DNA of 64,000 bases from Bacillota bacterium (GCA_009781445.1 WQYD01000004.1:6768-70767), one strand, 5' to 3'; shown: positions 1,841-61,261, numbered from the stretch's first letter. The notes: generated by a model from the sequence alone, not told the origin. Numbers and translations: made by a program.

Positions 1841-1990
1841 AATTCAGAATTAAGAATTCAGAATGCAGAATTGAAGATTAATTATTAATGAGATTTAGAT
1901 TCCTTCATGTTTCTCGTTTCATGTTTCTCGTTTCTCGTTTCATTTTTCAATTCCCCCCTAATCCCTTGTCCCTAATCCCTAATCCCTAAT
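1841..1990. repeat. Mosaic intergenic element: core AATGAGATTTAGATTCC (1887-1903) flanked by 7-nt-periodic modules (ATTCAGA/ATTAAGA/ATGCAGA), (TTTCTCG/TTTCATG)n and (CCCTAAT)n
   Basis: Read directly; the same core and modules recur in most intergenic gaps of the window. Confidence 0.85.
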
Positions 1991-2016
1991 AAAAAACCGC
2001 CTTTCAGCGGTTTTTA
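1991..2016 (+). terminator. Rho-independent terminator
   Basis: AAAAAACCGC-CTTTCA-GCGGTTTTTATT: GC stem plus T-run downstream of the transporter gene. Confidence 0.8.
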
Positions 2017-2072
2017 TTCGCCGTGGCAGTTTTTATATTTACAAAAAACGGATTGTAATATATAATATAAGT

Positions 2073-3161
2073 ATGGCAACCGTGCAAGCAAAGCAAATCT
2101 CGTATTTTGACAATCTGACTGCTGAGATTGCTTTTCCGTGTCGCATTGTTAACAAGAGTTTTACTAATGTAGAGTTGTTTGCTGGTTGTGGCGGTTTGGC
2201 TCTCGGGCTTGAACAGGCAGGATTTGATACCTTAATGTTAAATGATTTTGACAATTCTGCGTGCCAAACATTAAAACAAAATCGCCCAAATTGGAAAGTT
2301 ATTTGTGAGGATATAACGAAACTTTCAAGCGAAGATTTATTAAAACAATTAAACCTTAAAAGGGGCGAATTGGATTTATTGTCGGGCGGTTATCCTTGCC
2401 AAAGTTTTAGTTACGCTGGCAAAAAACTTGGCATTGACGATGTTCGCGGAACTATGTTTTATCACTTCGCACAAATCTTAAAGCAATTATATCCAAAAAT
2501 GTTTTTAGCGGAAAATGTTAAGGGCCTTGTTAATCACGATGACGGTAAAACACTCAAAACCATGATAGAGGTGTTTGCCGAAGTCGGTTACAATGTTCAA
2601 TTTAAAGTTCTAAACGCGTGGGAACACGGCGTAGCACAAAAGCGCGAAAGAGTAGTTATTATCGGAATCCGTAAAGATTTAAATATTCAATATGACTTTC
2701 CAAAAACGCAATCGTATAAGCCAACGCTGAAAGACGCATTAAAAGATGTTCCGAAATCACAGGGTGCAAAATACCCCGAAAGCAAAGCAAAAGTTTTTGA
2801 CCTTGTGCCTCAAGGCGGTTGCTGGCGACATTTACCGCAAGACATAGCAAAAGAATACATGAAAGGCAGTTACAATCTTGGCGGTGGAAAAACTGGTATC
2901 GCAAGACGAATTTCATGGAACGAACCAAGTTTAACCCTCACTTGTTCGCCCGCACAAAAACAAACTGACCGTTGCCACCCAGACGAAACGCGACCCTTTA
3001 CGGTTCGCGAATACGCAAGAATACAATCATTTCCAGACGACTGGGCTTTTGTGGGAACAATCACAAATCAATATAAACAAATCGGAAATGCTGTGCCGGT
3101 AAACTTCGCAAAAGAAATAGGCTTAACCATTTTGAAAGCATTGAAGGGGGCAGAAGAATAA
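2073..3161 (+). CDS. DNA (cytosine-5)-methyltransferase, type II R-M
   Basis: All canonical m5C motifs are present: I ELFAGCGGLALG, IV GGYPCQSFS, VI ENVKGL, VIII QKRERV, IX REYARIQSFPDDW, X QIGNAVPV. Confidence 0.95.
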   Translation: MATVQAKQISYFDNLTAEIAFPCRIVNKSFTNVELFAGCGGLALGLEQAGFDTLMLNDFDNSACQTLKQNRPNWKVICEDITKLSSEDLLKQLNLKRGELDLLSGGYPCQSFSYAGKKLGIDDVRGTMFYHFAQILKQLYPKMFLAENVKGLVNHDDGKTLKTMIEVFAEVGYNVQFKVLNAWEHGVAQKRERVVIIGIRKDLNIQYDFPKTQSYKPTLKDALKDVPKSQGAKYPESKAKVFDLVPQGGCWRHLPQDIAKEYMKGSYNLGGGKTGIARRISWNEPSLTLTCSPAQKQTDRCHPDETRPFTVREYARIQSFPDDWAFVGTITNQYKQIGNAVPVNFAKEIGLTILKALKGAEE

Positions 3162-3895
3162 TGGCATACTTAGATTTTATAAGTAACGAAAATTTAGAGA
3201 AACATATCAGAGAAACTATCCTTAAATACGGCGATAGCCTCAAAGGCATTAACCTTGCAACTTTTAACAAAAATATTATTGACCCTATCAAGCTTACTTT
3301 TGACAGCATTGTGTTTAATAAGGATATTGAACAAATCATAGTCGCCGAACTAATACGGCAACGCGATAAAACAAATTCAAACACAATCGGTTATTTTAAC
3401 CAAAACATTTTCAAATATATTGAAGGTTGCGAAGTGCCAACGCATGGCTTTGATGTCATTTTCCACGGGAAGAAAACCGTTTATGTTGAAATAAAGAACA
3501 AGCACAATACAATGAACTCATCGTCCTCGCAAAAAACATTTATGCGGATGTTGAACCAAGTTTCAAAAGACCAAAATTGCGAATGTTACCTTGTTGAAAT
3601 AATCGCAAAGAAAAGCCAACATGTTGTTTGGAAAATGTCGCTTGACGGCGAACAAACTTCAAACGAAAGAATATATCGCGTTTCTGTTGACAAGTTTTAT
3701 GAATTTATTACTGGGGATAAAGGTGCTTTTGCTAAACTATGCGAAGTTTTACCGCAAGTTATAACAAAAATAGTCAAAACCGATTTTGCAAGCAAAATTG
3801 AACAAGACACCGTTTACAGCGAATTAAAAGAACACAGCAAAGATTTACTTAGGGCATTATACTTGCTTGCGTTTAAAACTTATGAAGGGTTTTAA
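3161..3895 (+). CDS. Putative type II restriction endonuclease (PD-(D/E)xK fold), partner of the m5C methyltransferase
   Basis: Its start overlaps the methylase stop (TAATG). It has a PD-(D/E)xK-like catalytic pattern GFD98 ... VE110-I-K112 (nt 3452-3496). Size (244 aa) and position are typical of a cognate REase. Specificity is not determinable. Confidence 0.65.
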   Translation: MAYLDFISNENLEKHIRETILKYGDSLKGINLATFNKNIIDPIKLTFDSIVFNKDIEQIIVAELIRQRDKTNSNTIGYFNQNIFKYIEGCEVPTHGFDVIFHGKKTVYVEIKNKHNTMNSSSSQKTFMRMLNQVSKDQNCECYLVEIIAKKSQHVVWKMSLDGEQTSNERIYRVSVDKFYEFITGDKGAFAKLCEVLPQVITKIVKTDFASKIEQDTVYSELKEHSKDLLRALYLLAFKTYEGF

Positions 3896-4636: not shown

Positions 4637-4686
4637 AGAACCTGATTAAGCCCTTGTGGAATTATTTTATTAAGCATTTCTCTTAA

Positions 4687-4764
4687 CAAGATTTAGAATC
4701 CACAATTCGTACTTCTCATAATGAGATTTAGATTCCTTCCCTATGCCCTATAACCTATGCCCTC
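4687..4764. repeat. Mosaic intergenic element: partial core at 4689, full core 4730-4746, (CCCTATG)n arm
   Basis: Read directly. Confidence 0.8.
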
Positions 4765-4797
4765 AAAAAAACACCGCTTCTGCGGTGCTTTTTTTTA
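4765..4797. terminator. Bidirectional rho-independent terminator between convergent genes
   Basis: AAAAAAACACCGC-TTCT-GCGGTGCTTTTTTTT: A-run and T-run flank a GC stem. Confidence 0.8.
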
Positions 4798-5332: not shown

Positions 5333-5356
5333 GTTTATTAATTATGAATTATTTTT

Positions 5357-5504
5357 CAGCGCACAGCGCACAACGCACAGCGCACAGTGAAGGAATTATT
5401 TATTAATGAGATTCAGATTCCGCGCCTGTTGCCTATTGCCTGTTGCCTCAATAATGAGATTTAGAATCCACCATTGTGCGCTGTGCGCTGTGCGTTGTGC
5501 GCTG
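5357..5504. repeat. Nested mosaic hairpin element: (CAGCGCA)n ... core 5405 ... (GCCTGTT)n ... core 5453 ... (TGCGCTG)n
   Basis: The outer arms are reverse complements of each other; two cores lie inside. Confidence 0.85.
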
Positions 5505-5521
5505 TAAAACGCGTTCCGCGT

Positions 5522-8140: not shown

Positions 8141-8168
8141 AAAAAAGCCACCGAAGGGTGGCTTTTTT
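8141..8168 (+). terminator. Rho-independent terminator
   Basis: AAAAAAGCCACC-GAAG-GGTGGCTTTTTT. Confidence 0.85.
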
Positions 8169-8324
8169 AATTAAGAATTAAGAATTCAGAATGCAGAATT
8201 GTGGAATCTAAATCTCATTGTTGAGGGGGCAGGTTGCAGGATGCAGGATGCAGGGTTGGATTCTAAATATCATTATTAGTTAAATAATCCATAATTCTGA
8301 ATTCTGAATTCTGAATTCTTAATT
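8169..8324. repeat. Mosaic hairpin element: (AAGAATT/CAGAATT)n, core 8203, (GCAGGTT/GCAGGAT)n, core 8258, (AATTCTG)n
   Basis: Read directly; the outer ATTCAGA-type arms are inverted copies of each other. Confidence 0.85.
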
Positions 8325-8336
8325 GCGGAAAACGCA

Positions 8337-10562: not shown

Positions 10563-10727
10563 TGGCGGGTAGCTTCGCATGATGTCGCTATCGCTTATGA
10601 TGGTATGATGTCGGCTTTGCCTTATGATGTGTTGCTTTGCAACATTATGGAATGCTTAATATAATCCACCATGCGGGCTTGCCCGCCCATCATAAGCGTA
10701 GCGCCATCATATCATCATATCATCATT
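10563..10727. repeat. Family-B long hairpin element (core TAATCCACCATGCGGGCTTGCCCGC; arms built from CTTATGATG / CATCATAAG words)
   Basis: The arms are reverse complements. Homologous copies lie at 24576-25066 and 51800-51997 but use different arm words. Confidence 0.8.
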
Positions 10728-10747
10728 TATTTTGCGAAACCGCAAAA

Positions 10748-14394: not shown

Positions 14395-14534
14395 ACAGGT
14401 TGCAGGGGGCAGGGGGCAGGGGCGGAATTTTATTAATTCAGAATTAAGAATTCAGAATGCAGAATTATGGATTAATTAATAATGAGATTTAGAATCCTTC
14501 CCTGCAACCTGCCCCCTGCAACCTGCAACCTGCG
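14395..14534. repeat. Mosaic hairpin element: (GCAGGNN)n ... (ATTCAGA)n ... core 14481 ... (CTGCAAC)n
   Basis: Read directly. Confidence 0.85.
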
Positions 14535-14575
14535 TAAAATATCTATTGACACGCGCGCACTAATATAATATAATA

Positions 14576-17382: not shown

Positions 17383-17575
17383 AAATATAAAATATAAAAT
17401 ATAAATTACGGAATTATTATCTTGGGATTAGGGATTAGTTGCTTGGGATTAGAGTTAATAAATCCAACATTCGTAAATCGTAAGTCGTAAGTCGTCATTA
17501 CTCTTGAGTGAGATTTAGAATCCTCAATTTATATTTCATATTTTATATTTTATATTTTTCATTAATTCTGAATTA
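17383..17575. repeat. Mosaic hairpin element: (AAATATA)n, (GGGATTA)n, (CGTAAGT)n, core 17506, (TATTTTA)n; paralog of 39343-39597
   Basis: About 190 nt, nearly collinear with the element downstream of dnaN. Confidence 0.85.
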
Positions 17576-17579
17576 AAAC

Positions 17580-19072: not shown

Positions 19073-19725
19073 AATTTTGCAAACCCCTCTAAGCCCTTTT
19101 TATCAAACCTCACACCCCTATTCGGCTGTGTGGTTATGCGGATTTTTCCCGCCTCATAAACCCATTTTAAGAATGCGTCCGCACTCATTTCTTTAAGCAC
19201 AAGCGCCCGTTTGTTTATGCTTATCGGTTCAATTTTCACGGCTACTGAATCACTTAAAAGAAAGGGCATATACAAGAGTTTCCCTGCCTCGTCCCATTCC
19301 TTTAATTTGTCCGCAGTCTTGGAAACATCGTCCACGGAATGCCCGTCCGTAAGTATAAAAAGCCAAGGCTTATAGCTGTCCTCACCAAGTTTAATTAGCT
19401 TTCTTTTTCTTGCCGAAATTCCTTGCAAGGATAGTTCAATCGCCTCAGATAAAAACGGCGCGCGCCCCTGCTTAATGGGTTCAGAAACCTCATCGGTAAA
19501 CTTCTTAACAGTCTTTGATTTCGGGGTGTCAAACACGGTAAGCTGTAATTCAATGTAATCACTCAGCCCCTCATTCTTAATGCTTTCCGTAAGCGAATTG
19601 AAACTTGCGATAAAATTATTTACCTTAAGCCCTTGGGTAGAAAAGCTGTTGTCAAGAACAAAAGCTATCAGCAGTTTTAAGTTTTTGTTTATGTCGTCAA
19701 TCATATGTTTTTTAGTTTCCTTCAC
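19069..19725 (-). CDS. von Willebrand factor A domain protein (TerY-like)
   Basis: MIDAS DxSxS motif (VLDNSFS) and LFILTDGHS. GTG at 19725, or ATG at 19704 preceded by GAAGGA. Confidence 0.8.
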   Translation of the reverse strand: MKETKKHMIDDINKNLKLLIAFVLDNSFSTQGLKVNNFIASFNSLTESIKNEGLSDYIELQLTVFDTPKSKTVKKFTDEVSEPIKQGRAPFLSEAIELSLQGISARKRKLIKLGEDSYKPWLFILTDGHSVDDVSKTADKLKEWDEAGKLLYMPFLLSDSVAVKIEPISINKRALVLKEMSADAFLKWVYEAGKIRITTQPNRGVRFDKKGLEGFAKL

Positions 19726-21205
19726 TGTGCGCTGTGCGTTGTGCGTTGTGCATTGCGCAGAATGAATTCTGCGCCAATCTTTCCCTCTCTATCCTATAAA
19801 TTATCGGTAGCATTTCTTTTTGTTCCAAGAGGTTTTTCATATGTTTTTCATATGTTTCTTGATCTTGAAGCGCGCTTAAAAGTGCGTTTAAAAGCTGTAC
19901 GCCTTTGATATTTAAGTGCGTTTTATACTCAGCTGAGAGGGCTAATAATTTGCCCTTGTCTATCAAATTTAAAGCCTCTTCACATATGTTTTTTGCCCCT
20001 GAGAACCTTAAAATGTTTTTTGAAAATTCGCCGAAAAGTTCTTGATTTTCGTCCTGCGCTTTTCTGTAAGCGGTTTCAATTTTTTCAAAATTTCCCTCAA
20101 GATTTTGGTTTTTATAAATTGATAAAATGCTGTGATCAGGCGCGCCACCGCGCTTGTAATAATGGTATAAAATCAAAAGCATATTTTCATATTTCACCGA
20201 AATATCCCCAAGTAAAAGTTCTGTTGAAAGTATTGCTTTAAAGGATTCAAGCGCGCGGTATTCCGAATTCGGCGCGCAGGAATTAAGCGCGAAATTTATT
20301 GCGCCAATGTGTTCCACCGATAAAAATCCCATAATATAATTTAGGCTTTCCGTGGCGGAATGTGAAAGCATTTTAGAAAGAAGCCTGCCAAGTTCGCGCT
20401 TATCCAGCTTATCAAAAACTTCTTTGGGGTAATTTAAAAAGCCGTTATTTTCAATGCTTTCTTCCACTGCCCTATTCAATGCTTCGTCACATTTTTCCTC
20501 TACGCCAACCACAAGGCGCGCTAAATTTTCTTCTAAGATTTTTGGCGGTTCGCTTGGAAAAGGTTCTGCCTTTTCACCTCTTAAATGCTTTTTAAATTCC
20601 TCATTAAATCTTAAAATTTCAAGTTCGCCGTAGCACAAAATAAGTTTCTTTTGTTCGTCAAGTTCTTTAAAAACTTCATTAAAAAGTTCGTCCGCCACAG
20701 CACTATTCGGCTTAACGCTTAAGTAATTATCCCACCTTTTAAGCCTCTCTCTTGAGGCTTCTCTCTCACTTGCGAACTTGTTAAAAATCCTTTCGTATTC
20801 GCCCAAAACTTCCCCAAGCGCGCCCCTTTCAATCTTAGAAAAATAATCCTTAAATCCAAGAATTCCGCGCTTTAATTTTCCGCGTGTAAGCGTTAAAAAA
20901 AGTTCCGCACCCACCGCAAGAATCACAGGCGCAATAGCCAAAAGATAAATTAGCGTAACGGGTGAAAGGCAGGAAATCACCACGCAAAAAATGCTGTACA
21001 GCGCAAAGATTGCTGAGAGAATTAAAAACAAAATATCCCTTGGCGGATTGAATAATTTTGCCTTTTGTTTGAAGGTATGATAGCTAACTTCGTTTCTTTT
21101 TAACAGGGGAATTTCTCTTAAAGCGCAGTACGCAAACAGCCCCGTCCCAAACACGAAAAGGGCGATAACAAAGTATAAGGTGTTCGTTTCAAAGAAGGTT
21201 ATCAT
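19712..21205 (-). CDS. Membrane-anchored helical protein, function unknown
   Basis: 497 aa: three N-terminal TM helices, then a long predicted helical cytoplasmic part. Its start overlaps the upstream stop (ATGA, 21202-21205). The last ~15 codons are encoded by a (CAGCGCA)n repeat module. Confidence 0.75.
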   Translation of the reverse strand: MITFFETNTLYFVIALFVFGTGLFAYCALREIPLLKRNEVSYHTFKQKAKLFNPPRDILFLILSAIFALYSIFCVVISCLSPVTLIYLLAIAPVILAVGAELFLTLTRGKLKRGILGFKDYFSKIERGALGEVLGEYERIFNKFASEREASRERLKRWDNYLSVKPNSAVADELFNEVFKELDEQKKLILCYGELEILRFNEEFKKHLRGEKAEPFPSEPPKILEENLARLVVGVEEKCDEALNRAVEESIENNGFLNYPKEVFDKLDKRELGRLLSKMLSHSATESLNYIMGFLSVEHIGAINFALNSCAPNSEYRALESFKAILSTELLLGDISVKYENMLLILYHYYKRGGAPDHSILSIYKNQNLEGNFEKIETAYRKAQDENQELFGEFSKNILRFSGAKNICEEALNLIDKGKLLALSAEYKTHLNIKGVQLLNALLSALQDQETYEKHMKNLLEQKEMLPIIYRIERERLAQNSFCAMHNAQRTAHSEGN

Positions 21206-24245: not shown

Positions 24246-24330
24246 CTTTATTCCTTATATAATTTTTAAGTTAAATCCAATCCGTTAGCCCAAGTTAGCC
24301 TAAGCCTTTCACCTCAGCTTTACACCTCTC

Positions 24331-24443
24331 ACATATGTTTTGCGCCTACCAAAATATATGCCACTTTTCCGCCAATACATATGTTTTCATTCACTCTAAA
24401 CATATGTTTTCCGTTCGGCAATACATATGTTTTCATATGTTTC
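24331..24443. promoter_or_regulatory. Iteron-like array of five ACATATGTTTT(C) direct repeats upstream of the ComEC-like gene
   Basis: Copies at 24331, 24377, 24400, 24423 and 24433. The middle three are phased 23 nt apart. AAACATATGTTT is itself a palindrome. Confidence 0.6.
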
Positions 24444-28330: not shown

Positions 28331-28634
28331 GCCGTGGGTTTTACCCGCGGTTATGCAAATACTGCCCTCTGCGGGGCAGTTACGGATTGATTTAGAGTTA
28401 GCGTTTGGGATTTTGTGCTGTGCCGTGGGTTTCACCCACGGTTATGCAAATACTGCCCGCTACGGGGCAGATAAGGGATTGGGGTAAAGGTTAACCCAAG
28501 ATTGGGGCTTTAGGGCTTTGGGCTTCGCCGTGGGTTTTACCCAAGGCTCAAGCAAATTCTGCCCCTTTGGGGCAGTTGAGGATTAAACTATCCAATAATG
28601 AGATTTAGAATCCTCAATTCTGCATTCTGAATTA
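28331..28634. repeat. Three tandem copies (starts 28331, 28422, 28527) of a two-hairpin unit GCCGTGGGTTTYACCCRCGGTTATGCAAATACTGCCC...GGGGCAG, ending in the common core (28597) and an (ATTCTGC) arm
   Basis: Read directly. An inverted homolog lies at 49667-49743. Confidence 0.8.
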
Positions 28635-28719
28635 GTCCAAATCTGTATTGAATAATGCACCGTTCTGCATTCAGCGCGCGTGGGCGAAGTGCAAACAAAG
28701 CGAAGTAGGTTTATTTGGG

Positions 28720-30347: not shown

Positions 30348-30474
30348 CTATGCGCGGAATATGTAATATTTTGTAAAATTATGCAATTATGATACCCAAA
30401 TGCGTAAAAATTTGGTGCAATTTGCCAGAAGTTTCGCAGTGTGGAATGCTGTTGCTTGTGCAACGGGGCTTAAT

Positions 30475-30632
30475 CAGCGCACAATGCACAGCGCACAATG
30501 AAGGATTCTAAATCTCACTCAAGAGTAATGACGACTTACGACTTACGATTTACGAATGGTGGATTCTAAATCTCAGTATTAGTTAATTAATTCTGAATTA
30601 AACTATACCCTATGCCCTATGCCCTATACCCT
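30475..30632. repeat. Mosaic element: (CAGCGCA)n, core 30503, (ACGACTT)n, core 30561, (AATTCTG), (CCCTATG)n
   Basis: Read directly. Confidence 0.85.
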
Positions 30633-30637
30633 TAAAT

Positions 30638-31704: not shown

Positions 31705-32034
31705 ATGAAAAAGGCGAACAGGCTAACTAATAACGCAAGCTTTAGCTACATTTATAAGCACGGCAAAGCGGTTCACGGCGCGGTTTTGGCGGTTCACTTT
31801 GTGGTGGCAGGTTCAATTAAAGTTGGCATAAGCGTTTCCAAAAAAATAGGAAAAAGCGTTATCCGCAGTAAGGTTAAAAGGCGCATAAAGGAAAGTTTCC
31901 GCCACATTATCCCTTTGCTTTCGGCAAAATGCAATTATGTGGTTTCCGCAAAGGAAGGTATCGCCGAAAAGGATTTTGCCTATATTGATAAAGAATTGAG
32001 GGCATTGCTGAAGAGGGTGAAACATTTAGATTAA
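31705..32034 (+). CDS. rnpA: Ribonuclease P protein component
   Basis: 109 aa, basic, immediately after rpmH. Has the typical N-terminal KKANRLTNNASFSYIYKHG. Confidence 0.9.
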   Translation: MKKANRLTNNASFSYIYKHGKAVHGAVLAVHFVVAGSIKVGISVSKKIGKSVIRSKVKRRIKESFRHIIPLLSAKCNYVVSAKEGIAEKDFAYIDKELRALLKRVKHLD

Positions 32035-32130
32035 TTCAGAATTAAGAATTCAGAATGCAGAATTAAGGATTTATTTATAATGAGATTTAGAATCCTTCCC
32101 TATGCCCTATGCCCTATAACCTATGCCCTC
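32034..32130. repeat. Mosaic element: (ATTCAGA)n, core 32079, (CCCTATG)n
   Basis: Read directly; it sits inside the rnpA-yidD operon gap. Confidence 0.85.
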
Positions 32131-35843: not shown

Positions 35844-35847
35844 TAGA

Positions 35848-36070
35848 AAGGCCATAGGCCATAGGGCAAAGGCCATAGAGTTGGATTCTAAATATAATTA
35901 TTGATAAGGCAAAAGGCGTTGGGTGAAAAATAATAGGGCAAAGGCCATAGGGTTGGATTCTAAATATAATTATTGATAAGGCAAAAGGCGTTGGGTGAAA
36001 AATAATTCGGAAAGAAGGAAGTTTTAATAATAATTCCGCCCCTATCCCCTATGCCCTATGGCCTATGGCC
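35848..36070. repeat. Mosaic element with (GGCCATA)n arms and a 72-nt tandem duplication (35864-35935 and 35936-36005), each copy carrying a degenerate core GGATTCTAAATATAATT
   Basis: The two 72-nt copies differ at about one position. The outer arms GGCCATAGGCCATAGGGC / GCCCTATGGCCTATGGCC are inverted copies. Confidence 0.85.
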
Positions 36071-36132
36071 TTTTAAACACCTTTCCCTCAATTTTTCTTG
36101 AATTCTAATCTCACTTGTTATATACTTAAACT

Positions 36133-37542: not shown

Positions 37543-37566
37543 ATTTTAAGCAGAGCTTAAAATTTA

Positions 37567-37811
37567 ATTCAGAATTAAGAATTCAGAATGCAGAATTATG
37601 GATTAATTAACTTATAATGAGATTTAGATTCCACCATGTTTCTCGTTTCATGTTTCTCGTTTCACTATTTATAATGAGATTTAGATTCCGCCATTCGTAA
37701 ATCGTAAGTCGTAAGTCGTCATTACTCTTGAGTGTGATTTAGATTCCATTACTTTTCACTCTTGATTCTTCATTTCCACCACTATGCCCTATAACCTATG
37801 CCCTATGCCCT
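37567..37811. repeat. Composite mosaic element with three cores (37616, 37673, 37730) and modules (ATTCAGA)n, (TTTCTCG)n, (CGTAAGT)n, a (TTTTCAC...)-type module and (CCCTATG)n
   Basis: Read directly. Its last 32 nt form the left arm of a perfect inverted repeat around the AT-rich spacer. Confidence 0.85.
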
Positions 37812-38104
37812 AAAAAATTTGTTAACCCCTGTTCACAACTGTTTATAACACTTAACAAGTTATCAACAAAAACTAAGCAACCTTTTGTTCCTTTTCTTTC
37901 TAAAAACCTAAAAACAAAGCAATTTTAAAAGTTATTAACATATCCACATAGCTTATTATTATTGTTATTATCTTTATCCTAATTATTAAATTATTATATA
38001 AATTTCCCACTGAAAATTTCCTGCTTGATTTTTATATTTTTTTTGTGTAAAATAGTAATAATCAATTTAGAATTTAAAATTATAAATTTCAAATGTCGTA
38101 ATTG
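37812..38104. other. oriC-like AT-rich dnaA-dnaN spacer with degenerate DnaA boxes
   Basis: TTATCAACA (37860-37868) and ATATCCACA (37940-37948) are each one mismatch from TTATCCACA. A very AT-rich run covers 37950-38100. This is the classical Firmicute origin location. Confidence 0.6.
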
Positions 38105-38201
38105 AGGGCATAGGGCATAGGTTATAGGGCATAGTGAAGGATTTAAATATTATTATTAGTTAATCCACCATTGTGCGCTGTGCGTTGTGCGTTGTGCGCT
38201 G
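38105..38201. repeat. Mosaic element: (CATAGGG)n arm (right arm of the 32-bp inverted repeat), degenerate core, (TGCGCTG)n
   Basis: 38105-38136 is the exact reverse complement of 37780-37811. Confidence 0.9.
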
Positions 38202-38228
38202 AAAAAACAATCACCAAAAAGAGGAACT

Positions 38229-39332: not shown

Positions 39333-39342
39333 TAATTTTTAA

Positions 39343-39597
39343 AAATATAAAATATGAAATATGAAATACAAATTATGGAATTATTATCTTGGGATTAGAG
39401 ATTAGTTGCTTTAGATTAGAGTTATGATAAACAAATCCAACATTCGTAAATCGTAAGTCGTAAGTCGTCATTACTCTTAATGAGATTTAGAATCCTCAAT
39501 TTATATTTTTAGTTAAGCCTGCAAGGCGACACCAAGGTTCTGCCACAGGCAGGTTCTTATATTTTATAATTCATATTTTTCCTTAATTCTGAATTAA
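39343..39597. repeat. Mosaic hairpin element, paralog of 17383-17575, with a ~55-nt insertion (39503-39560)
   Basis: Same module order: (AAATATA), (GGGATTA), (CGTAAGT), core 39479, (TATTTTA). Confidence 0.85.
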
Positions 39598-44757: not shown

Positions 44758-44908
44758 AGGGGGCAGGTTGCAGGGTGCGGGTTGCAGGGTTGGAATCTAA
44801 ATCTCATTATGAAACGAGAAACGAGAAACGAGAAACATGGCGGATTCTAAATCTCATTATTAGTTAAATAATCCATAATTCTGCATTCTGAATTCTTAAT
44901 TCTGAATT
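44757..44908. repeat. Mosaic element: (GCAGGNT)n, core 44792, (ACGAGAA)n, core 44842, (AATTCTG)n
   Basis: Read directly. Confidence 0.85.
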
Positions 44909-44922
44909 AAAAAGGGGGCAAT

Positions 44923-46452
44923 ATGCAAAAAACAATTTTAACATTTGATTGCGGTACGCAAAGCATAAGAGCAATGCTTTATGATACCAAGGGTGAACTT
45001 CTTGCCAAGGCAAAAAGGAAGTATGACGAGCCGTATTTTTCGGTGAAACCGCATTACGCGGAACAGCACGCGGATTTTTATTGGGAAAATTTGTGTGCTT
45101 CGGCAAAGGAATTAAAAGAACAGAATGCAGGGCTTTGGGATTCTATAATCGGCGTTACGGTTACCTGTATGCGCGATGTTGGCATTTGTTTGGACGCAGA
45201 TATGAAGCCTTTGCGCCCTGCAATGCTGTGGCTTGATGTGAGGAAAGCACCGCCACCCAAACTTCCGCTTATGGGCAGGGCTTTATACTCACTTGTGGGC
45301 ATGAAAGAAATTGTCCGCATGAAAAGCGATGATTGCAAAAGTTCATGGATTCGCCACCACGAACCTGAGATTTGGGCAAAAACCGCAAAGTTCGTTCAGC
45401 TTTCAGCTTATCTCAATTACAAACTCACAGGGGTTTTGAGTGATAGCGTGGCTTCAACCGTGGGGCATATTCCGTTTGATTACAAAAAGGGCGAATGGCT
45501 TAAGGATAACCATTGGCAGGCTTCACTTTTCAGGGTGGAATATAACAAACTTTATCCGCTTGCCAAGCCGGGGGAACTTCTTGGCGAAATTACCGAAACG
45601 GCTTCAAAGGAAAGCGGTGTGTTAAAAGGCTTGCCTGTAGTGGCAAGCGGAAGTGATAAAAGCTGTGAAACCGTGGGAACAGGCGCGATATATGAGGACT
45701 GTGCCAGCATAAGTTTCGGCACAACTTCCACAATGCAACTTACCACCAAAAAGTATTGCGAACCTGTTAAATTCTTGCCTGCGTACCAAGCGGTTTATGC
45801 GGGGCGTTTTAACCCCGAATTCATAATTTACCGCGGATATTGGTTGCTTACATGGTTTGTGGAACAGTTTATGAAAGGCGAAAAAGAAAAGCTGAAGGAC
45901 GGCAGTGTGGAAGCAAAACTTAACGAAAAACTTAAGGATGTCCCCCCCTGTTGCCAAGGGCTTTACCTCATGCCTTATTGGAACCCGGGGATTAATCTTC
46001 CCGAAGCCCGCGGAACAATGATTGGCTTTACCGCTGCCCACACGGCGGTTCATGTGTACCGTGCGCTAATTGAAGGTATCAATTTTGAACTCAAAAAAGG
46101 CATGGAAGTGCTTGAAAAGCAGGCAAAAACCAAAGTTAAGAGGCTTTTCGTTTCGGGTGGCGGTGCGCAAAGTGACGAAATTTTGCAAATAACCGCAGAT
46201 ATGTTCAACCTTCCCGTAACGCGCGTGCAAACCGTGGAAACCAGCGGACTCGGCGCGGCGGTTTGCGCTTTCAGCGGTTTAAAGGTGTTCCCCTCACTTG
46301 AGGACGCAATTAAAAACATGGTAACCGAAACCAAAACTTTCACCCCCAACCCCGAAATCCACAGGATTTATAAGGATTTTTACGAAAATATCTATAAAAC
46401 CACCTATAAAAAGCTAAAAAAGGTATTCAAAATAATTCACGAAAAGCACTAA
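44923..46452 (+). CDS. FGGY-family carbohydrate kinase (glycerol/xylulose kinase-like)
   Basis: N-terminal LTFDCGTQSIRAML and C-terminal FVSGGGAQSDEILQITADMF. Confidence 0.85.
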   Translation: MQKTILTFDCGTQSIRAMLYDTKGELLAKAKRKYDEPYFSVKPHYAEQHADFYWENLCASAKELKEQNAGLWDSIIGVTVTCMRDVGICLDADMKPLRPAMLWLDVRKAPPPKLPLMGRALYSLVGMKEIVRMKSDDCKSSWIRHHEPEIWAKTAKFVQLSAYLNYKLTGVLSDSVASTVGHIPFDYKKGEWLKDNHWQASLFRVEYNKLYPLAKPGELLGEITETASKESGVLKGLPVVASGSDKSCETVGTGAIYEDCASISFGTTSTMQLTTKKYCEPVKFLPAYQAVYAGRFNPEFIIYRGYWLLTWFVEQFMKGEKEKLKDGSVEAKLNEKLKDVPPCCQGLYLMPYWNPGINLPEARGTMIGFTAAHTAVHVYRALIEGINFELKKGMEVLEKQAKTKVKRLFVSGGGAQSDEILQITADMFNLPVTRVQTVETSGLGAAVCAFSGLKVFPSLEDAIKNMVTETKTFTPNPEIHRIYKDFYENIYKTTYKKLKKVFKIIHEKH

Positions 46453-46456
46453 TACG

Positions 46457-46542
46457 AAGGAAAAGTGAAACGAGAAACGATAAAAGAGAAACATGGCGGA
46501 ATCTAAATATCATTATTAGTTAATTGATCCATAATTCTGAAT
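46457..46542. repeat. Mosaic element: (ACGAGAA)-type arm, core 46498, (AATTCTG)
   Basis: Read directly. Confidence 0.8.
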
Positions 46543-46551
46543 CAAACCACA

Positions 46552-49666: not shown

Positions 49667-49743
49667 GCAAATCTCATTATTGATTTATCCGCATAAAGCC
49701 CCAAAGGGGCGCAATGTGCATAACCGCGGGTGAAACCCACGGC
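49667..49743. repeat. Inverted single copy of the two-hairpin unit seen three times at 28331-28634, including a partial core (AATAATGAGATTTGC on the minus strand)
   Basis: The reverse complement reads GCCGTGGGTTTCACCCGCGGTTATGCACATTGCGCCCCTTTGGGGC...AATAATGAGATTT. Confidence 0.75.
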
Positions 49744-49777
49744 AAAGTGAGAGTGTAGCAAGCTTACCCACACAAAC

Positions 49778-49815: not shown

Positions 49816-50076
49816 GTGTTGCTATCTGCGTTTCTTCACCTTGCCTCGCGCTACGCTTACGCTTGCACGGGGTTATACACATTTCACCCCTGCGGGGTTC
49901 TGTAAGGAATTAGCCAATATGATAAGGGATTAGGGGCGGAAGTGAAGAGCGAAAAGTGAAGAATGGTGGATTAATTAGTATTGTAATTAAATTCCGTGCC
50001 GTGTTCTCAATGCTTGTTGGAAAGTTAGTCGTTCCGCGTTTTGAGAAGTCGTTTCTTCGTGACTTTAATGACTTAT

Positions 50077-51786: not shown

Positions 51787-51799
51787 GCGTGGAATTATT

Positions 51800-51997
51800 T
51801 GTGAAGACGGCTTCGCCTTGTGAAGACGCAAACAAGTTTGCTTATGAAGCCGTTCACTTCGTTCACTTGTGAAGAGTTGCTTCGCAACATGGCGGAATGT
51901 TTATATATAATAATCCACCATGCAGGCTTGCCTGCACTTCATAAGGCGAAGCCGGCTTCACAAGCGTAGCGTCTTCACGCGCCAAAGGCGCACTTCA
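51800..51997. repeat. Family-B long hairpin element (core TAATCCACCATGCAGGCTTGCCTGC at ~51911)
   Basis: Arms GTGAAGACG.../...CGTCTTCAC are reverse complements. Homologous to 24576-25066 and 10563-10727. Confidence 0.8.
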
Positions 51998-55480: not shown

Positions 55481-55501
55481 CGCGCAACCTGTTGCGTGCT
55501 T

Positions 55502-55643
55502 CAGCGCACAGCGCACAGCGCACAGCGCACAATGGTGGATTCTAAATCTCATTATTAGTTAATTGATCCATAATTCTGCATTCTGCATTCTTAATTCTGA
55601 ATTAATCCTTCACTGTGCGCTGTGCATTGTGCGTTGTGCGCTG
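55502..55643. repeat. Mosaic hairpin element: (CAGCGCA)4, core 55537, (AATTCTG)n, (TGCGCTG)n
   Basis: The outer arms are reverse complements. It lies between yabP and yabQ. Confidence 0.9.
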
Positions 55644-55652
55644 AAAATTACT

Positions 55653-56000
55653 ATGCTTACCGATTCCCACCTTCAACCCCTTGCACTAATTCTTTTTACC
55701 TGCTGTGGTGCAGGGGTGTATTTTTGTTATGAAGTTTTGCGTGCGGTGCGCTTTCAAAGAAAGCTACCTGTGCTTATGCACATTACAGACGCACTCTTTG
55801 CCGTGTCCGTCTGCGCGGTGTTTGCCCTGCTTACGCACCTTTTTTATAGCGGAATAATCAAACCTTACACACTTTTTTGTTATGCACTCGGGCTAATCAC
55901 CGCAAGGCTATCTTTAAAGCCTGCAATTAGAAAGGTTTTACAATTTGTAAAGCGCAAGTATATAGGGCGGAAGAAGCGACAAAATATTAGAGGGCAATAG
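55653..56000 (+). CDS. yabQ: Spore cortex biosynthesis protein YabQ-like membrane protein
   Basis: Start taken at MLTDSHLQPL (the track start at 55563 reads through the repeat element). Multi-TM, 115 aa, follows yabP. Confidence 0.7.
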   Translation: MLTDSHLQPLALILFTCCGAGVYFCYEVLRAVRFQRKLPVLMHITDALFAVSVCAVFALLTHLFYSGIIKPYTLFCYALGLITARLSLKPAIRKVLQFVKRKYIGRKKRQNIRGQ

Positions 56001-56070
56001 GCAATAAGGGTGCAGGTTGCAGGATGCAGGATGCAGGGGTGGAATCTAAATCTCATTATTGAGAGGGCAG
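55993..56070. repeat. Mosaic element: (GGCAATA), (GCAGGNT)n, core 56041
   Basis: Read directly. Confidence 0.8.
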
Positions 56071-56086
56071 TACATAAAGAGGAAAA

Positions 56087-56176
56087 ATGATAAAGCTAAA
56101 AAAATCAACAGTAGTAACGCAAGCAAGCAAAGCCGTTAACGGAAAATGCGCGTGTGGGAAAAATGTTTCGGAATAG
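56087..56176 (+). CDS. Candidate 29-aa small ORF MIKLKKSTVVTQASKAVNGKCACGKNVSE
   Basis: AAGAGGA lies 6 nt upstream of the ATG. It sits between two repeat elements and is not in the ORF track. There is no homology evidence. Confidence 0.3.
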   Translation: MIKLKKSTVVTQASKAVNGKCACGKNVSE

Positions 56177-56187
56177 GGAATGGGTTT

Positions 56188-56283
56188 AATTCAGAATTCA
56201 GAATTAAGAATGCAGAATTATGGATTTATTTATAATGAGATTTAGATTCCATCCCCGCAATCTGAATCCTGCAACCTGCACCC
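56188..56283. repeat. Mosaic element: (ATTCAGA)n, core 56234, (CTGCAAC)-type arm
   Basis: Read directly. Confidence 0.8.
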
Positions 56284-59827: not shown

Positions 59828-59932
59828 ATCTAAAGTATATAAGATTTTGAAAAACAAAGCAACTCAACCGCGCCCGTGCGTGTTATAGTAATTTGTTTGA
59901 CTTTGCGCGCGCGCGCCGTTTAAAATAGAAAC

Positions 59933-61120
59933 ATGAAATACTTGGTTGTTTTGGGTGACGGCATGGCTGATTTGCCCATAGCTGAATTAAACGGCAAAAC
60001 CCCGCTTGAAGTGGCGGACATTCCCGCTATGAACGAACTTGCAAAAAGAGGGCAAACAGGGCTTATTAAAACCGTGCCTGCCCCTTTTAAACCGGGAAGT
60101 GATATTGCAAATTTATCCGTTTTGGGCTATCACCCTGAAAAGTATTATTCGGGCAGAAGCCCCCTTGAAGCCCTAAACCTTGGCGTTAAAATGAAAGACA
60201 GCGATGTCGCATTAAGGCTAAACCTCACCACGGTTGAAAACGGCGTTATGAAAGATTATAGCGCAGGTGAGATTTCTTCCCAAGAGGCGTCTGAACTTAT
60301 AAGCGCGCTTAACCAAGGTTTAAAAATCAGCGGAATCAAGATTTATGCGGGGGTTTCTTACCGCCATTGCCTGATTTATGAAAACGGTGAAACCGCCACG
60401 GAACTTACCCCCCCTCACGACATTACGGGGAAACCAATCGCAAATCATTTGCCAAAGGGCGCAAATTCCGCATTTTATTTGGATTTTATGGAAAAATCCG
60501 CTAAAATCCTCAAAAATCACCCTATAAATTTGGCGCGCCGTGAAAGAGGGCAGAACGAAGCTAACACCGCTTGGCTTTGGGGCGCAGGGGTAAAGCCCAA
60601 CCTTAAACGCTTTAAAGAAATCCACGGGCTTAACGGCGCGGTTATATCCGCGGTGGATCTTTTAAAGGGAATTGCAAAAGGCACAGGAATGCTTGCGCCT
60701 TTCGTGGACGGTGCAACAGGCACGCTTCATTCCAACTTCAAGGGCAAGGCGGAAAAGGTTAAGGAATGCTTTGAAAACGGCACGGACTTTGTGTACTTGC
60801 ACATAGAAGCACCGGACGAATGTAGCCACCAAGGGGATTTAAAAGGAAAAATTAAGGCAATAGAAATCGTAAACGGATTGCTTAAAGAACTTTGGGATTA
60901 CTTAGAATCAAGCGGTGAAGATTATGCGATTGCACTGCTTCCCGATCATTCAACCCCCTTATCCACCCAAACCCACGCGGATAACCCTGTGCCTTACGCA
61001 GTGTTTAAAAGCAATTCCCCCTATAACTCAGGGCTATCGTATAACGAAAAAAGCGCGGAAAACGGCGTATTTTTGGCAGAGGGCGGGGAAATTATGGAAT
61101 TGCTGTTGCACAGCAATTAG
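59933..61120 (+). CDS. apgM: Cofactor-independent phosphoglycerate mutase, archaeal ApgM type
   Basis: MKYLVVLGDGMADLP...GKTPLE N-terminus and HIEAPDECSHQGD motif. Confidence 0.85.
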   Translation: MKYLVVLGDGMADLPIAELNGKTPLEVADIPAMNELAKRGQTGLIKTVPAPFKPGSDIANLSVLGYHPEKYYSGRSPLEALNLGVKMKDSDVALRLNLTTVENGVMKDYSAGEISSQEASELISALNQGLKISGIKIYAGVSYRHCLIYENGETATELTPPHDITGKPIANHLPKGANSAFYLDFMEKSAKILKNHPINLARRERGQNEANTAWLWGAGVKPNLKRFKEIHGLNGAVISAVDLLKGIAKGTGMLAPFVDGATGTLHSNFKGKAEKVKECFENGTDFVYLHIEAPDECSHQGDLKGKIKAIEIVNGLLKELWDYLESSGEDYAIALLPDHSTPLSTQTHADNPVPYAVFKSNSPYNSGLSYNEKSAENGVFLAEGGEIMELLLHSN

Positions 61121-61261
61121 CGCACAGCGCACAGCGCACAATGAAGGATTCTAAATATCATTATTAGTTAATTAACCCATAATTCGTACTTCGTACTTTG
61201 TACTTCGTACCTAAATAAATAATTCCTTCACTGTGCGCTGTGCGTTGTGCGCTGTGCGCTG
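61119..61261. repeat. Mosaic hairpin element: (CAGCGCA)n, core 61146, (CGTACTT)n, (TGCGCTG)n
   Basis: Read directly; it begins at the apgM stop codon. Confidence 0.85.

What the first reader, a model, noticed from the sequence alone, without database searches (positions are those of the whole stretch)
1841..61261. Pervasive intergenic mosaic hairpin elements: conserved 17-nt core plus interchangeable heptanucleotide-repeat arms
At least 25 copies, in both orientations, of AATGAGATTTAGAWTCC occur in 64 kb. Essentially all lie between genes, near 1887, 4730, 5405, 5453, 8203, 8258, 14481, 17506, 28597, 30503, 30561, 32079, 35883, 35955, 37616, 37673, 37730, 39479, 44792, 44842, 46498, 55537, 56041, 56234 and 61146.

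Each core is joined by a short CCNN/NNGG linker to a 25-40 nt arm. The arm is itself a 3-5x tandem repeat of a 7-mer, and the 7-mer differs from copy to copy: ATTCAGA/ATGCAGA, CAGCGCA, GCAGGTT/GCAGGAT, CCCTATG, CGTAAGT, TTTCTCG, AAATATA, GGGATTA/CCCTAAT, GGCCATA, CGTACTT, GCCTGTT.

Arms reappear as reverse complements on the far side of the core(s), so whole elements are long nested imperfect hairpins. An example is 55502-55643: (CAGCGCA)4 - core - (AATTCTG)n - (TGCGCTG)4.

I do not recognise this architecture (constant core, variable period-7 stems) as a named REP, BIME, MITE or CRISPR class. It could be a mobile element, a structured RNA/DNA terminator or insulator, or the footprint of a slippage-type synthesis mechanism.
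Basis: seen in the sequence. Interest (0 to 1): 0.8.

Follow-up and report, generated by a model that had tools for sequence, protein, structure and literature searches.

The report
Mosaic hairpin repeats with seven-base arms
An uncultured Clostridia-like bacterium has filled about a fifth of its intergenic DNA with small non-coding repeats built from one constant AT-rich core and interchangeable arms of tandem 7-base units; they look like a new family of selfish mosaic hairpin repeats, not a gene, an RNA gene or a terminator.

Summary
The 17-nt core occurs 26 times (≤2 mismatches; 0.03 expected), always between genes, and 7 more copies lie in the 11 kb flanking the window. Period-7 tracts number 37, against 0-3 for any other period, and 33 of them lie within 120 nt of a core.

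The arms are about 10 recurrent modules copied with identical imperfections, not local slippage products. The core is the right half of a symmetric apex, GGATT-N23-AATCC. The arms are phase-locked to the core.

Only about half of the composites are true hairpins (9 of 16 have complementary outer arms; permutation P=7.5e-5). The rest are chimeras or core-arm-core arrays.

There is no bias relative to transcription, no U-tract and no Rfam, plasmid or phage match. No transposase is encoded in the ~75 kb examined.

A related metagenomic organism carries the same modules. A closer protein relative (PFOR 81%) has intergenic heptamer arrays but no core.

Best reading: a lineage-specific BIME/BOX-like mosaic repeat family that spreads at the DNA level, with stems made of heptanucleotide arrays as in cyanobacterial STRR/SDR. 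This is a new variant of a known kind. The mobilising mechanism is unresolved.

The parts
1838..1992 (+). E1: C arm (AATTCAG)n - linker - core (1887) - F arm (GTTTCTC)n - G array (CCCTAAT)n. It starts 1 nt after a stop codon and is followed by a canonical terminator.
   Evidence: Not a hairpin (z -1.2; DNA z 0.7).
4660..4768 (+). E2: degenerate core (4685) - one CGTACTT-type unit - core (4720) - P arm (CCCTATG)n, then a terminator at 4772-4787.
   Evidence: z 0.1.
5350..5507 (+). E3: A arm (CAGCGCA)4 - GTGAAGGAATT - core (5405) - M arm (GCCTGTT)3 - core (5453) - A' arm (TGTGCGC)4. Strong hairpin.
   Evidence: RNA -75.9 kcal/mol, z -9.0. DNA z -7.7.
8169..8326 (-). E4: C arm - linker - core (8258) - D arm (CCTGCAT)n - core (8203) - C' arm. 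Hairpin next to a bidirectional terminator at 8141-8168.
   Evidence: RNA z -6.2/-8.0. DNA z -6.5.
14398..14536 (+). E5: D' arm (GCAGGGG)n - C arm - linker - core (14481) - D arm. Hairpin lying between two divergent promoter-like sites (14378-14349 on the - strand, 14546-14574 on the + strand).
   Evidence: z -9.8; z -7.4.
17383..17579 (+). E6: N arm (AAATATA)n - G'-like segment - truncated core (AAATCCAACAT) - T arm (TCGTAAG)n - core (17507) - N' arm - C' fragment.
   Evidence: 90% identical over 160 nt to E12.
28560..28640 (+). E7: GC-rich REP-like unit fused to GAGGATT - loop - core (28597) - short C' arm.
   Evidence: z -3.1.
30470..30637 (-). E8: P' arm - short C - linker - core (30561) - T arm - core (30503) - A' arm. 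Chimera, not a hairpin. Adjacent to a DnaA-box-like cluster at 30307-30352.
32030..32130 (+). E9: C arm (begins inside the rnpA stop codon) - linker - core (32079) - P arm. Chimera.
   Evidence: z -0.6.
35846..36075 (-). E10: outer arms (AGGCCAT)n and (CCCTATG/GGCCTAT)n enclosing a 72-bp tandem duplication, each copy with a 2-mismatch core (35883, 35955). Upstream of dnaA.
   Evidence: z -4.7.
37563..37815 (+). E11: C arm - linker - core (37616) - F arm - core (37673) - T arm - core (37731) - spacer - P arm. Three-core array in the dnaA-dnaN spacer.
   Evidence: z -0.1.
38100..38205 (-). E11b: P' arm - GTGAAGGATT - degenerate, indel-bearing core and linker - AATCCACCAT - A' arm.
   Evidence: Folds only as + strand RNA through G-U pairs (z -7.1 versus -0.4).
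39342..39565 (+). E12: paralogue of E6 (N - truncated core - T arm - core 39479 - N'), with a ~50-nt insertion (39509-39558) inside the N' arm.
44758..44912 (-). E13: C arm - linker - core (44842) - F arm - core (44792) - D arm. It fills the whole 165-nt gap between two co-directional genes.
46460..46545 (-). E14: short C arm - linker - core (46498) - F arm. It fills the gap after the FGGY-family sugar kinase gene (44923-46452).
55498..55646 (-). E15: A arm - GTGAAGGATT - C arm - linker - core (55537) - A' arm.
   Evidence: z -9.3; z -8.8.
56003..56275 (.). E16: D' arm - core (56041, - strand) ... ~170 nt holding a 29-codon ORF ... C arm - linker - core (56234, + strand) - D arm. Inverted pair.
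   Evidence: z -8.3.
61115..61265 (-). E17: A arm - GTGAAGGAATT - (GTACGAA)n arm - linker - core (61146) - A' arm. The A' arm overlaps the stop codon of the upstream gene. Strong hairpin.
   Evidence: z -10.4; z -7.6.
19717..19760 (+). Orphan half element: CTTCACTG + A' arm (TGTGCGC)n, with no core.
49935..50000 (-). Core-less apex: GGAATT - AT-rich loop - AATCCACCAT, followed by a heptamer arm (TCTTCAC-type).

Best explanation
These are copies of a lineage-specific family of small, non-coding, modular palindromic repeats. They are comparable to BIME or BOX mosaic elements and are carried by an uncultured Clostridia-like bacterium.

Anatomy (shown).
- The constant part is a symmetric AT-rich apex, GGATT-AATTAACTAAT-AATGAGATTTAG-AATCC.
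- From AATCC, a 5-nt junction (RCCAT-type) leads into an arm of 3-5 tandem heptanucleotides, in a fixed register relative to the core.
- Arms come from about 10 recurrent types.
- When the two outer arms are complementary, the element is a 30-35-bp hairpin or cruciform.
- Otherwise it is a chimera, or a core-arm-core array.

Mechanism (inferred).
- The heptamer arrays arise and turn over by replication slippage. Heptamers are the most slippage-prone unit size in many bacteria.
- Inverted arms are kept complementary by intrastrand template switching at quasi-palindromes.
- Finished modules are then copied to new intergenic sites at the DNA level. This could be done by a trans-acting enzyme that recognises the constant apex, or by gene conversion or recombination at the shared core. 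Either route explains the free re-assortment of arms around the core.
- The elements are probably selfish or neutral. Where they are transcribed they add very stable hairpins to 3' UTRs and intercistronic regions, which may incidentally affect mRNA stability.
For: - Copy number and strict intergenic location. The same density continues outside the window, with 7 more cores in 11 kb.
- Dispersal rather than local slippage: identical imperfect arms occur at different loci. For example, AATTCAGAATTAAGAATTCAGAATGCAGAAT is found at 1841, 14435, 32033, 37566 and 44878 (reverse complement). TCGTAAATCGTAAGTCGTAAGTCGT is found at 17471, 30531 (reverse complement), 37695 and 39444. Blocks of 40-160 nt are shared at 88-99% identity in different combinations.
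- Sharp copy definition: 26 copies at ≤2 mismatches and none at 3. This indicates recent spread or homogenisation.
- Re-assortment: the C-linker-core module is followed by F (4 times), D (3), P (1) or A' (1).
- Complementary outer arms in 9 of 16 composites, against 2.5 expected (P=7.5e-5), using five different stem sequences around one apex.
- Very stable folds as both RNA and DNA for those copies.
- Phase lock: T at +23/+30/+37/+44 in 21/22/20/20 of 26 copies, across 9 of 10 arm types.
- No orientation bias relative to flanking genes: 7 sense, 7 antisense, 3 ambiguous. E5 lies between divergent promoters. Both points indicate DNA-level rather than strand-specific RNA function.
- Nested structure: a ~50-nt insertion in E12 relative to its paralogue E6, and a 72-bp tandem duplication in E10.
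- A related organism (L044, L047) carries the same C-linker-core-F and core-C' modules with shuffled unit order.
- The PFOR-81% relative has intergenic heptamer arrays, including inverted ones, but no core. More distant relatives have essentially none.
- The slippage rationale for heptamers comes from Mrazek et al. 2007, as summarised in PMC4679880 and PMC4692102.
Against: - No transposase, RAYT/Y1, reverse transcriptase or recombinase gene lies in the window or in the 11 kb of flanks.
- No target-site duplication is visible at the ends of the complete hairpins (read).
- No empty versus filled orthologous site could be examined, because no close relative is available. The nearest DnaA is 52% identical.
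- The only difference between two assemblies of this genome lies in an unrelated 21-bp repeat. Mobility is therefore inferred, not shown.
- About half of the copies are not hairpins, so the hairpin cannot be essential for persistence.
- Template switching and slippage are inferred from general knowledge, not observed here.
Confidence: 0.6

Rival explanations
1. Functional cis-acting RNA elements. Hairpins in 3' UTRs and between cistrons would stabilise upstream mRNA, act as RNase III/Y processing sites, or present the constant loop (with its GGA motif) to an RNA-binding protein such as CsrA.
For: Many elements abut or overlap the stop codon of the upstream gene, or fill entire intercistronic gaps (E9, E13, E14, E17). 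E1, E2 and E4 lie between a stop codon and a canonical terminator, so they are almost certainly transcribed. RNA folds reach -55 to -88 kcal/mol. E11b folds only on the sense strand, through G-U pairs. REP/BIME and BOX elements have such side effects (PMC3184786).
Against: Core orientation relative to transcription is random (7 sense, 7 antisense). Half the copies have no significant structure. E5 and E8 lie in divergent promoter regions. Sense and antisense fold energies show no consistent bias. There is no Rfam match.
Confidence: 0.15
2. DNA-level host sites. The constant apex would be a binding site for a nucleoid, topology or replication-associated protein, as IHF and gyrase bind BIMEs, and the heptamer arms would provide cruciform-prone or phased DNA.
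For: The core is the only part shared by all sub-families. The related junction AATCC-RCCAT is enriched (30 observed versus 3.4 expected) and is shared with a second, core-less palindromic family. There is no strand bias. Elements flank dnaA on both sides and lie next to the DnaA-box-like cluster. Three heptamers equal two helical turns.
Against: No candidate protein is known. The PFOR-81% relative lacks the core, which argues against a conserved host function. Copy similarity (88-99%) looks like recent spread, not ancient conserved sites.
Confidence: 0.1
3. Footprint of a dedicated repeat-synthesising activity. A telomerase-like or reverse-transcriptase-like enzyme, or a slipping polymerase, would start at the core and add heptamer units de novo at each site.
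For: Arms start at a fixed distance from the core and in a fixed phase. The first base is T in 9 of 10 arm types. Only period 7 is seen.
Against: Arms at different loci share identical imperfections, so they were copied, not synthesised independently. No reverse transcriptase or similar gene lies in ~75 kb. Arm types are few.
Confidence: 0.04
4. Assembly or chimera artefact of a metagenomic contig.
For: The source is a metagenome assembly. One short-read contig (L038) ends inside a core.
Against: Independent records reproduce the elements base for base (L036, L037, L056, L058). A different organism in another metagenome carries diverged copies. The elements sit precisely between intact genes.
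Confidence: 0.01

Closest known systems
REP/BIME (bacterial interspersed mosaic elements) of enterobacteria and pseudomonads, including REPINs
   Same: Extragenic and highly repeated. Built as mosaics of short palindromic units plus other short motifs in varied combinations. Often sit at 3' ends of genes or between cistrons. Form stable hairpins. No coding capacity. The central motif between inverted units is reminiscent of BIME-1 with its IHF site (own knowledge; PMC3333891 and PMC3116915 abstracts).
   Different: In REPs the stem sequence and a 5' tetranucleotide are conserved and the loop varies. Here the apex is conserved and the stems are interchangeable period-7 arrays. No RAYT gene was found in ~75 kb. 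The host is a Firmicute.
BOX elements of Streptococcus pneumoniae
   Same: Firmicute, intergenic and modular (boxA, a variable number of boxB, boxC). MITE-like, 67-637 bp, transcribed, no identified dedicated transposase (PMC3184786).
   Different: BOX modules are 45-59 bp unique sequences in a fixed A-Bn-C order. Here the modules are a 17-33-nt apex and heptamer arrays in free combination.
Cyanobacterial STRR heptanucleotide arrays with embedded small dispersed repeats (SDR; Elhai et al. 2008, Genome Res 18:1484)
   Same: Many different intergenic tandem heptamers. 21-27-nt dispersed repeats found inside such arrays. Nested copies. A shared hairpin structure for some families. Mobility inferred without a known enzyme. 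This is from memory of the abstract; the paper could not be opened.
   Different: The host is Clostridia-like, not a heterocystous cyanobacterium. The core sits between two different or mutually complementary arrays, rather than inside one array. Arms are short (3-5 units), phase-locked and dispersed together with the core. The single Nostoc match to the core is a chance hit with no arms.
Over-represented intergenic heptameric SSRs (Xanthomonas GGGAATC, Nostoc GGGGAYT, Beggiatoaceae TAACTGA)
   Same: Period 7 specifically, intergenic, short arrays. Attributed to polymerase slippage, with possible regulatory roles (PMC4692102 and PMC4679880).
   Different: Those are one or a few heptamers per genome, occurring as free direct repeats. 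Here there are about 10 heptamers tied to a common core, often as inverted pairs.
MITEs (e.g. Nezha, Correia, RUP)
   Same: Small, AT-rich, multi-copy, intergenic, stable predicted folds (PMC3184786).
   Different: There are no constant terminal inverted repeats, no target-site duplications at the copies examined, and no related IS.

Membership tests
MITE | Small (<~500 bp), non-coding, multi-copy, intergenic | tested here: met
   26 cores in 18 loci, composites of 80-270 nt, all intergenic.
MITE | Constant terminal inverted repeats shared by all copies | tested here: not met
   Outer arms differ between copies and are complementary in only 9 of 16.
MITE | Target-site duplications flanking the element | tested here: not met
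   Flanks of E3, E4, E5, E15 and E17, read, show no direct repeats. The flanks instead extend the palindrome (T-run on the 5' side, A-run on the 3' side).
MITE | A parent IS or transposase with matching ends | not testable with these tools
   None in the window or in 11 kb of flanks. The rest of the genome is not available.
REP/BIME-REPIN | Extragenic imperfect palindromes clustered in mosaic combinations | tested here: met
REP/BIME-REPIN | Conserved stem sequence with a conserved 5' tetranucleotide; variable loop | tested here: not met
   The conserved part is the apex; the stems are interchangeable.
REP/BIME-REPIN | Associated RAYT (Y1 transposase) gene flanked by REPs | not testable with these tools
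   No Y1_Tnp-type hit among window genes. A genome-wide search was not possible.
Cyanobacterial STRR/SDR | Tandem heptanucleotide arrays of several sequences in intergenic DNA | tested here: met
   37 period-7 tracts, about 10 unit types.
Cyanobacterial STRR/SDR | A 21-27-nt dispersed repeat embedded within an array of one heptamer; sequence identity to SDR1-8 | tested here: inconclusive
   The core always separates two different or complementary arrays, never X-core-X in direct orientation. SDR sequences are not held here.
Cyanobacterial STRR/SDR | Confined to a coherent cyanobacterial subgroup | tested here: not met
   Closest proteins come from Clostridia/Christensenellaceae MAGs. yabP and a yabQ-like ORF are present.
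CRISPR | Regular repeat with unique spacers in a long array; cas genes | tested here: not met
   At most 3 cores per array, with irregular spacing (35-72 nt). The 'spacers' are recurrent low-complexity arms. No cas genes. No Rfam CRISPR-DR hit on the core.
Integron attC | Conserved R/L boxes at the stem base, uniform orientation behind cassettes, intI nearby | tested here: not met
   Conservation is at the apex, orientation is mixed, neighbours are housekeeping genes (dnaA, dnaN, rnpA) and there is no integrase.
Intrinsic terminator | GC-rich hairpin followed by a U-tract | tested here: not met
   The 3' flanks of the strong hairpins are A-rich or mixed on both strands. Separate canonical terminators lie beside E1, E2 and E4.
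Any Rfam RNA family | Covariance-model match | tested here: not met
   0 hits at gathering threshold. At E≤1 there are only two unrelated sub-threshold hits.

The most novel reading that the evidence does not exclude
The family would be a self-propagating hairpin system in which a still-unidentified structure- or sequence-specific enzyme recognises the constant apex (GGATT-N23-AATCC). The stems would then evolve freely by concerted heptamer slippage and arm-to-arm template switching. That would be a REP/RAYT-like or SDR-like mobility mechanism with loop recognition and period-7 'designer' stems, and the first mechanistic link between bacterial heptanucleotide arrays and mobile DNA outside cyanobacteria.
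Probability: 0.2. Interest if true: 0.7.

Novelty: new variant of a known kind. Interest (0 to 1): 0.5.

Why it matters
Why bacteria accumulate tandem heptanucleotides (STRR in cyanobacteria, similar arrays in Xanthomonas and giant sulfur bacteria), and how very small dispersed repeats move, are old unresolved questions.

This genome offers a compact case. The arrays are physically and phase-wise tied to one conserved core. They are re-assorted like cassettes, and they occupy about 20% of intergenic DNA, including the spacers either side of dnaA and the spacer holding the DnaA-box-like cluster.

If the mobilising or binding factor can be found in the complete genome, it would show how such repeats arise and spread.

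Practically, the elements explain assembly breaks. They would also confound annotation of promoters, terminators and small RNAs in this lineage.

Tried and rejected
- **Genome-collection scan.** The Nostoc, Oscillatoriales and Hanamia hits have no heptamer arms next to the match.
- **Metagenome scan.** A 21-mer gave 8 loci, of which only L044 and L047 are real. The viral scan gave 2 chance hits.
- **GANTC site.** The core always contains GANTC, which suggested a methylation site. GANTC is not unusual in the window (156 observed versus 168 expected), so this was dropped.
- **Promoter or terminator function.** The consensus scans do not clearly exceed their shuffles (promoter-like 45 versus 38±6.3, terminator-like 36 versus 27±5.3), and there are no U-tracts after the strong hairpins.
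- **Coding potential.** The ATG in the core has no ribosome-binding site. Heptamer arms give inconsistent peptides. The apex carries stop codons in all six frames (read from the sequence).
- **Strain polymorphism.** The only indel between assemblies is in a 21-bp repeat at 27321-27375, not in these elements.
- **Orthologous empty sites.** The nearest relatives are too distant. Their sites carry other heptamer arrays (L053, L055) or no spacer at all (L054).
- **Elhai 2008 paper.** It could not be read, so the comparison with SDRs rests on memory.
- **Plasmid and phage BLAST.** No match.


Full report
**Check of the observation.** AATGAGATTTAGAWTCC occurs 26 times at ≤2 mismatches (14 exact). 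Shuffles give 0.03. Loosening the threshold adds no copy at 3 mismatches and only two chance hits at 4, so copies are sharply defined. Against a conservative list of 44 genes, all 26 are intergenic. Intergenic DNA is 21.7% of the window, giving P=5.6e-18, or 1.1e-12 counting 18 loci. Tandem tracts of period 7 number 37, against 0-3 for every other period from 4 to 12 and about 0.07 in second-order Markov simulations. 33 of the 37 lie within 120 nt of a core. Tandem Repeats Finder lists the same arrays. The composites add up to about 2.8 kb, which is 4.3% of the window and 20% of its intergenic DNA.

**Host and setting.** Gene content points to an uncultured Clostridia-like Firmicute:
- Pyruvate:ferredoxin oxidoreductase, a short alanine-tRNA ligase, MnmG, yabP plus a yabQ-like ORF, and the string rpmH-rnpA-yidC-jag-mnmE-dnaA-dnaN.
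- Best protein matches are to Clostridia/Christensenellaceae MAGs: DnaA 52%, PFOR 81% then 72%.

The window contains the replication-origin region. There is a DnaA-box-like cluster at 30307-30352, and the GC skew changes sign near 28 kb. Independent records of the same genome reproduce the elements exactly. They also extend the sequence by 11 kb, in which 7 more cores with the same grammar are found.

**Anatomy.** I aligned all copies on the core.
- In 12 copies the core is preceded by GGAWT plus an AT-rich stretch. The full apex is therefore GGATT-AATTAACTAAT-AATGAGATTTAG-AATCC, a 5-bp inner stem around a 23-nt loop.
- The other 14 cores are 'internal': they directly follow the tail of a preceding arm, giving core-arm-core arrays with spacings of 35-72 nt.
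- After the core comes a 5-nt junction (ACCAT, TTCAT, AACCC, TCAAT...), then 3-5 heptamers.
- The arms are phase-locked to the core. Positions +23, +30, +37 and +44 are T in 21, 22, 20 and 20 of 26 copies, across 9 of 10 arm types. Several types have C at the preceding position.

**Arms are copied modules.** The arms are not private to each locus.
- The imperfect array AATTCAGAATTAAGAATTCAGAATGCAGAAT is identical at five loci.
- TCGTAAATCGTAAGTCGTAAGTCGT is identical at four loci.
- Self-BLAST shows blocks of 40-160 nt shared at 88-99% identity in different combinations.
- The (AATTCAG)n arm plus linker always lies 5' of a core. It is followed by four different arm types.

The elements are therefore mosaics of a small set of dispersed modules.

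**Hairpins.** I delimited 18 composites, plus orphan pieces.
- Eight fold far better than dinucleotide shuffles as RNA (z -6 to -10; -55 to -88 kcal/mol). The five of them also folded as single-stranded DNA behave the same way (z -6.5 to -8.8): E3, E4, E5, E15 and E17. E16 was folded as RNA only. E10 is weaker. E11b folds on one strand only.
- E1, E2, E8, E9, E11, E13 and E14 fold no better than shuffles.
- Outer arms are complementary in 9 of 16 two-armed composites, against 2.5 expected if arms were paired at random (P=7.5e-5).
- Five different stem sequences (CAGCGCA, AATTCAG, GCAGGNN, AAATATA, AGGCCAT/CATAGGG) are used around the same apex.

Complementarity is thus favoured or generated by the process that makes the elements, but it is not obligatory.

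**What it is not.**
- Not a known RNA family. Rfam gives nothing at gathering thresholds, and only two unrelated sub-threshold hits at E≤1.
- Not a strand-specific RNA. The core is sense to the surrounding transcription unit 7 times, antisense 7 times and ambiguous 3 times.
- Not an intrinsic terminator. The strong hairpins are followed by A-rich or mixed sequence on both strands. E1, E2 and E4 each have a separate canonical terminator beside them. E5 lies exactly between two divergent, near-consensus promoter-like sites.
- Not CRISPR, attC or a classical MITE. There are no regular arrays or cas genes, no base-of-stem conserved boxes or integrase, and no constant terminal repeats or target duplications.
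- Not coding. The apex has stop codons in all six frames, and no gene in the ~75 kb examined encodes a transposase, Y1/HUH enzyme or reverse transcriptase.
- Not found in plasmid or phage collections, nor as a string in the paper library.

**Relatives.**
- The genome-collection scan with the bare 17-mer returned only chance singletons, including a Nostoc hit with no arms.
- A 21-mer scan of metagenomes found two genuine loci from one other sample (L044, L047; GC 0.37). They carry C arm-linker-core-F arm and core-C' arm. The core is identical, but the heptamer variants within the arm are in a different order. The family therefore exists in at least one other organism, and arrays keep slipping after divergence.
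- The organism with the closest PFOR (81%; L053, and L055 from the same sample) has intergenic heptamer arrays of other sequences. One is an inverted pair upstream of PFOR. Others lie after PFOR and after the FGGY-kinase gene. No core is found at ≤4 mismatches in L053 or ≤3 in L055.
- More distant relatives have essentially no arrays.
- Heptamer arrays are thus older and broader in this clade than the core.

**A wider superfamily in the same genome.** The junction AATCC-RCCAT is itself enriched (30 observed versus 3.4 expected). It is shared with a second palindromic family that has no core and uses 12-19-nt repeats as arms. That family's apex at 51889-51921 is CATGGCGGAAT-GTTTATATATAAT-AATCCACCATG. 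The junction is also shared with core-less or degenerate apexes at 38139 and 49963. A GC-rich REP-like unit is fused to a core at 28597.

**Mechanism.**
- *Shown:* modular composition, dispersal of identical modules, re-assortment around the core, excess complementarity, phase lock, intergenic confinement, absence of strand bias, and presence in a second organism.
- *Inferred, slippage:* heptamer arrays arise by replication slippage. Heptamers are the dominant long-SSR class in many bacteria, and this has been attributed to the footprint of the polymerase (Mrazek et al. 2007, as summarised in PMC4679880 and PMC4692102).
- *Inferred, template switching:* inverted arms are homogenised by quasi-palindrome template switching (established mutational mechanism; own knowledge).
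- *Inferred, copying:* modules are copied to new sites either by a trans-acting enzyme that recognises the apex, or by recombination or gene conversion at the shared core.
- *Unresolved:* I cannot distinguish the last two options. There is no transposase, no target duplication and no empty site. I give the overall 'selfish mosaic repeat' reading 0.6.
- *Rivals:* cis-acting RNA hairpins (0.15), host protein-binding DNA sites (0.10), de novo repeat synthesis from the core (0.04) and artefact (0.01).

**Comparison and novelty.** Functionally and architecturally the closest precedents are enterobacterial BIMEs, pneumococcal BOX elements and, most specifically, the heptamer arrays with embedded small dispersed repeats of heterocystous cyanobacteria (Elhai 2008, from memory). 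The present family differs from each in a defining respect:
- the apex is conserved rather than the stem;
- the order of modules is free;
- the arms are phase-locked and often complementary;
- the host is a Firmicute.

I therefore file it as a new variant of a known kind, not as a member of any named family.

**Interest.** Moderate (0.5). It is a clean, dense, unusual example that bears on the unexplained prevalence of heptanucleotide repeats. The organism is uncultured, and mobility and function remain inferred.

Noticed in passing
10640-10730; 24593-25070; 51799-51997: A second palindromic mosaic repeat family. It has no 17-nt core, and its arms are made of CTTCACAAGCG-type repeats of about 12-19 nt. 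It shares the apex design and junction, e.g. CATGGCGGAAT-GTTTATATATAAT-AATCCACCATG at 51889-51921. Two copies at 24709-24811 and 24964-25066 are 99% identical.
   Followed up: partly
28310-28590; 49717-49747 (reverse complement); L047 4080-4140: GC-rich REP-like units of about 90 nt, each with two small hairpins (ccgtgggttttacccgcgg; ctgccctctgcggggcag). They occur three times in tandem, the last fused to a core. The unit is also present in the related organism.
   Followed up: partly
24246-28719: About 4.5 kb with almost no long ORF. It is rich in GAACATATGTTC palindromes (Cheo/LexA-box-like), TGTTTCA(C)ATGTGAAACA palindromes and 'aaatttttgggtagggt' repeats. Its nature is unknown (degraded prophage, regulatory island or non-coding region).
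   Followed up: no
27321-27375: A 21-bp tandem repeat, GGGTAAAAAGCAGATAAATTT. The window has one more unit than the independent assembly L037. This is the only difference over 15 kb.
   Followed up: yes
30307-30352 and 28000-38200: A DnaA-box-like cluster (TGTGGATAA, 3 copies) lies about 6 kb upstream of dnaA. rpmH-rnpA-yidC-jag-mnmE-dnaA-dnaN are all co-directional, and the GC skew changes sign near 28 kb. oriC is probably near 30 kb rather than beside dnaA. There is a sub-threshold Rfam AsdA hit inside dnaA (36613-36691, - strand).
   Followed up: no
2073-3895: A Type II restriction-modification pair: a C5 cytosine methylase followed by an Eco47II-family endonuclease.
   Followed up: no
39509-39558: A ~50-nt insertion (ttagttaagcctgcaaggcgacaccaaggttctgccacaggcaggttc...) inside the AT-rich arm of E12. 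It is absent from the paralogous element E6, has weak hairpin potential, and has no other copy in the window.
   Followed up: partly
56088-56176: A 29-codon ORF (MIKLKKSTVVTQASKAVNGKCACGKNVSE) bracketed by two inverted core+arm modules (E16). It may be a passenger or a spurious ORF.
   Followed up: no
55654-56000: An uncalled membrane-protein ORF immediately after yabP, probably yabQ. It is separated from yabP by the very stable hairpin E15.
   Followed up: no
L053 2070-2260, 5795-5827, 8495-8545; L055 1599-1630: The PFOR-81% relative has its own heptamer arrays: ATTGAAT/ATTCAAT inverted around a 130-nt GC-rich segment, TAATTAT, and TAGTGGC flanked by TTATGGATT...GGTGGAAT. They sit at positions equivalent to elements in the window, but with no 17-nt core.
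   Followed up: partly
L044 8-451: An IS3-family (rve-type) transposase fragment lies about 1 kb from the core copy in the related organism. No link to the repeats is evident.
   Followed up: no
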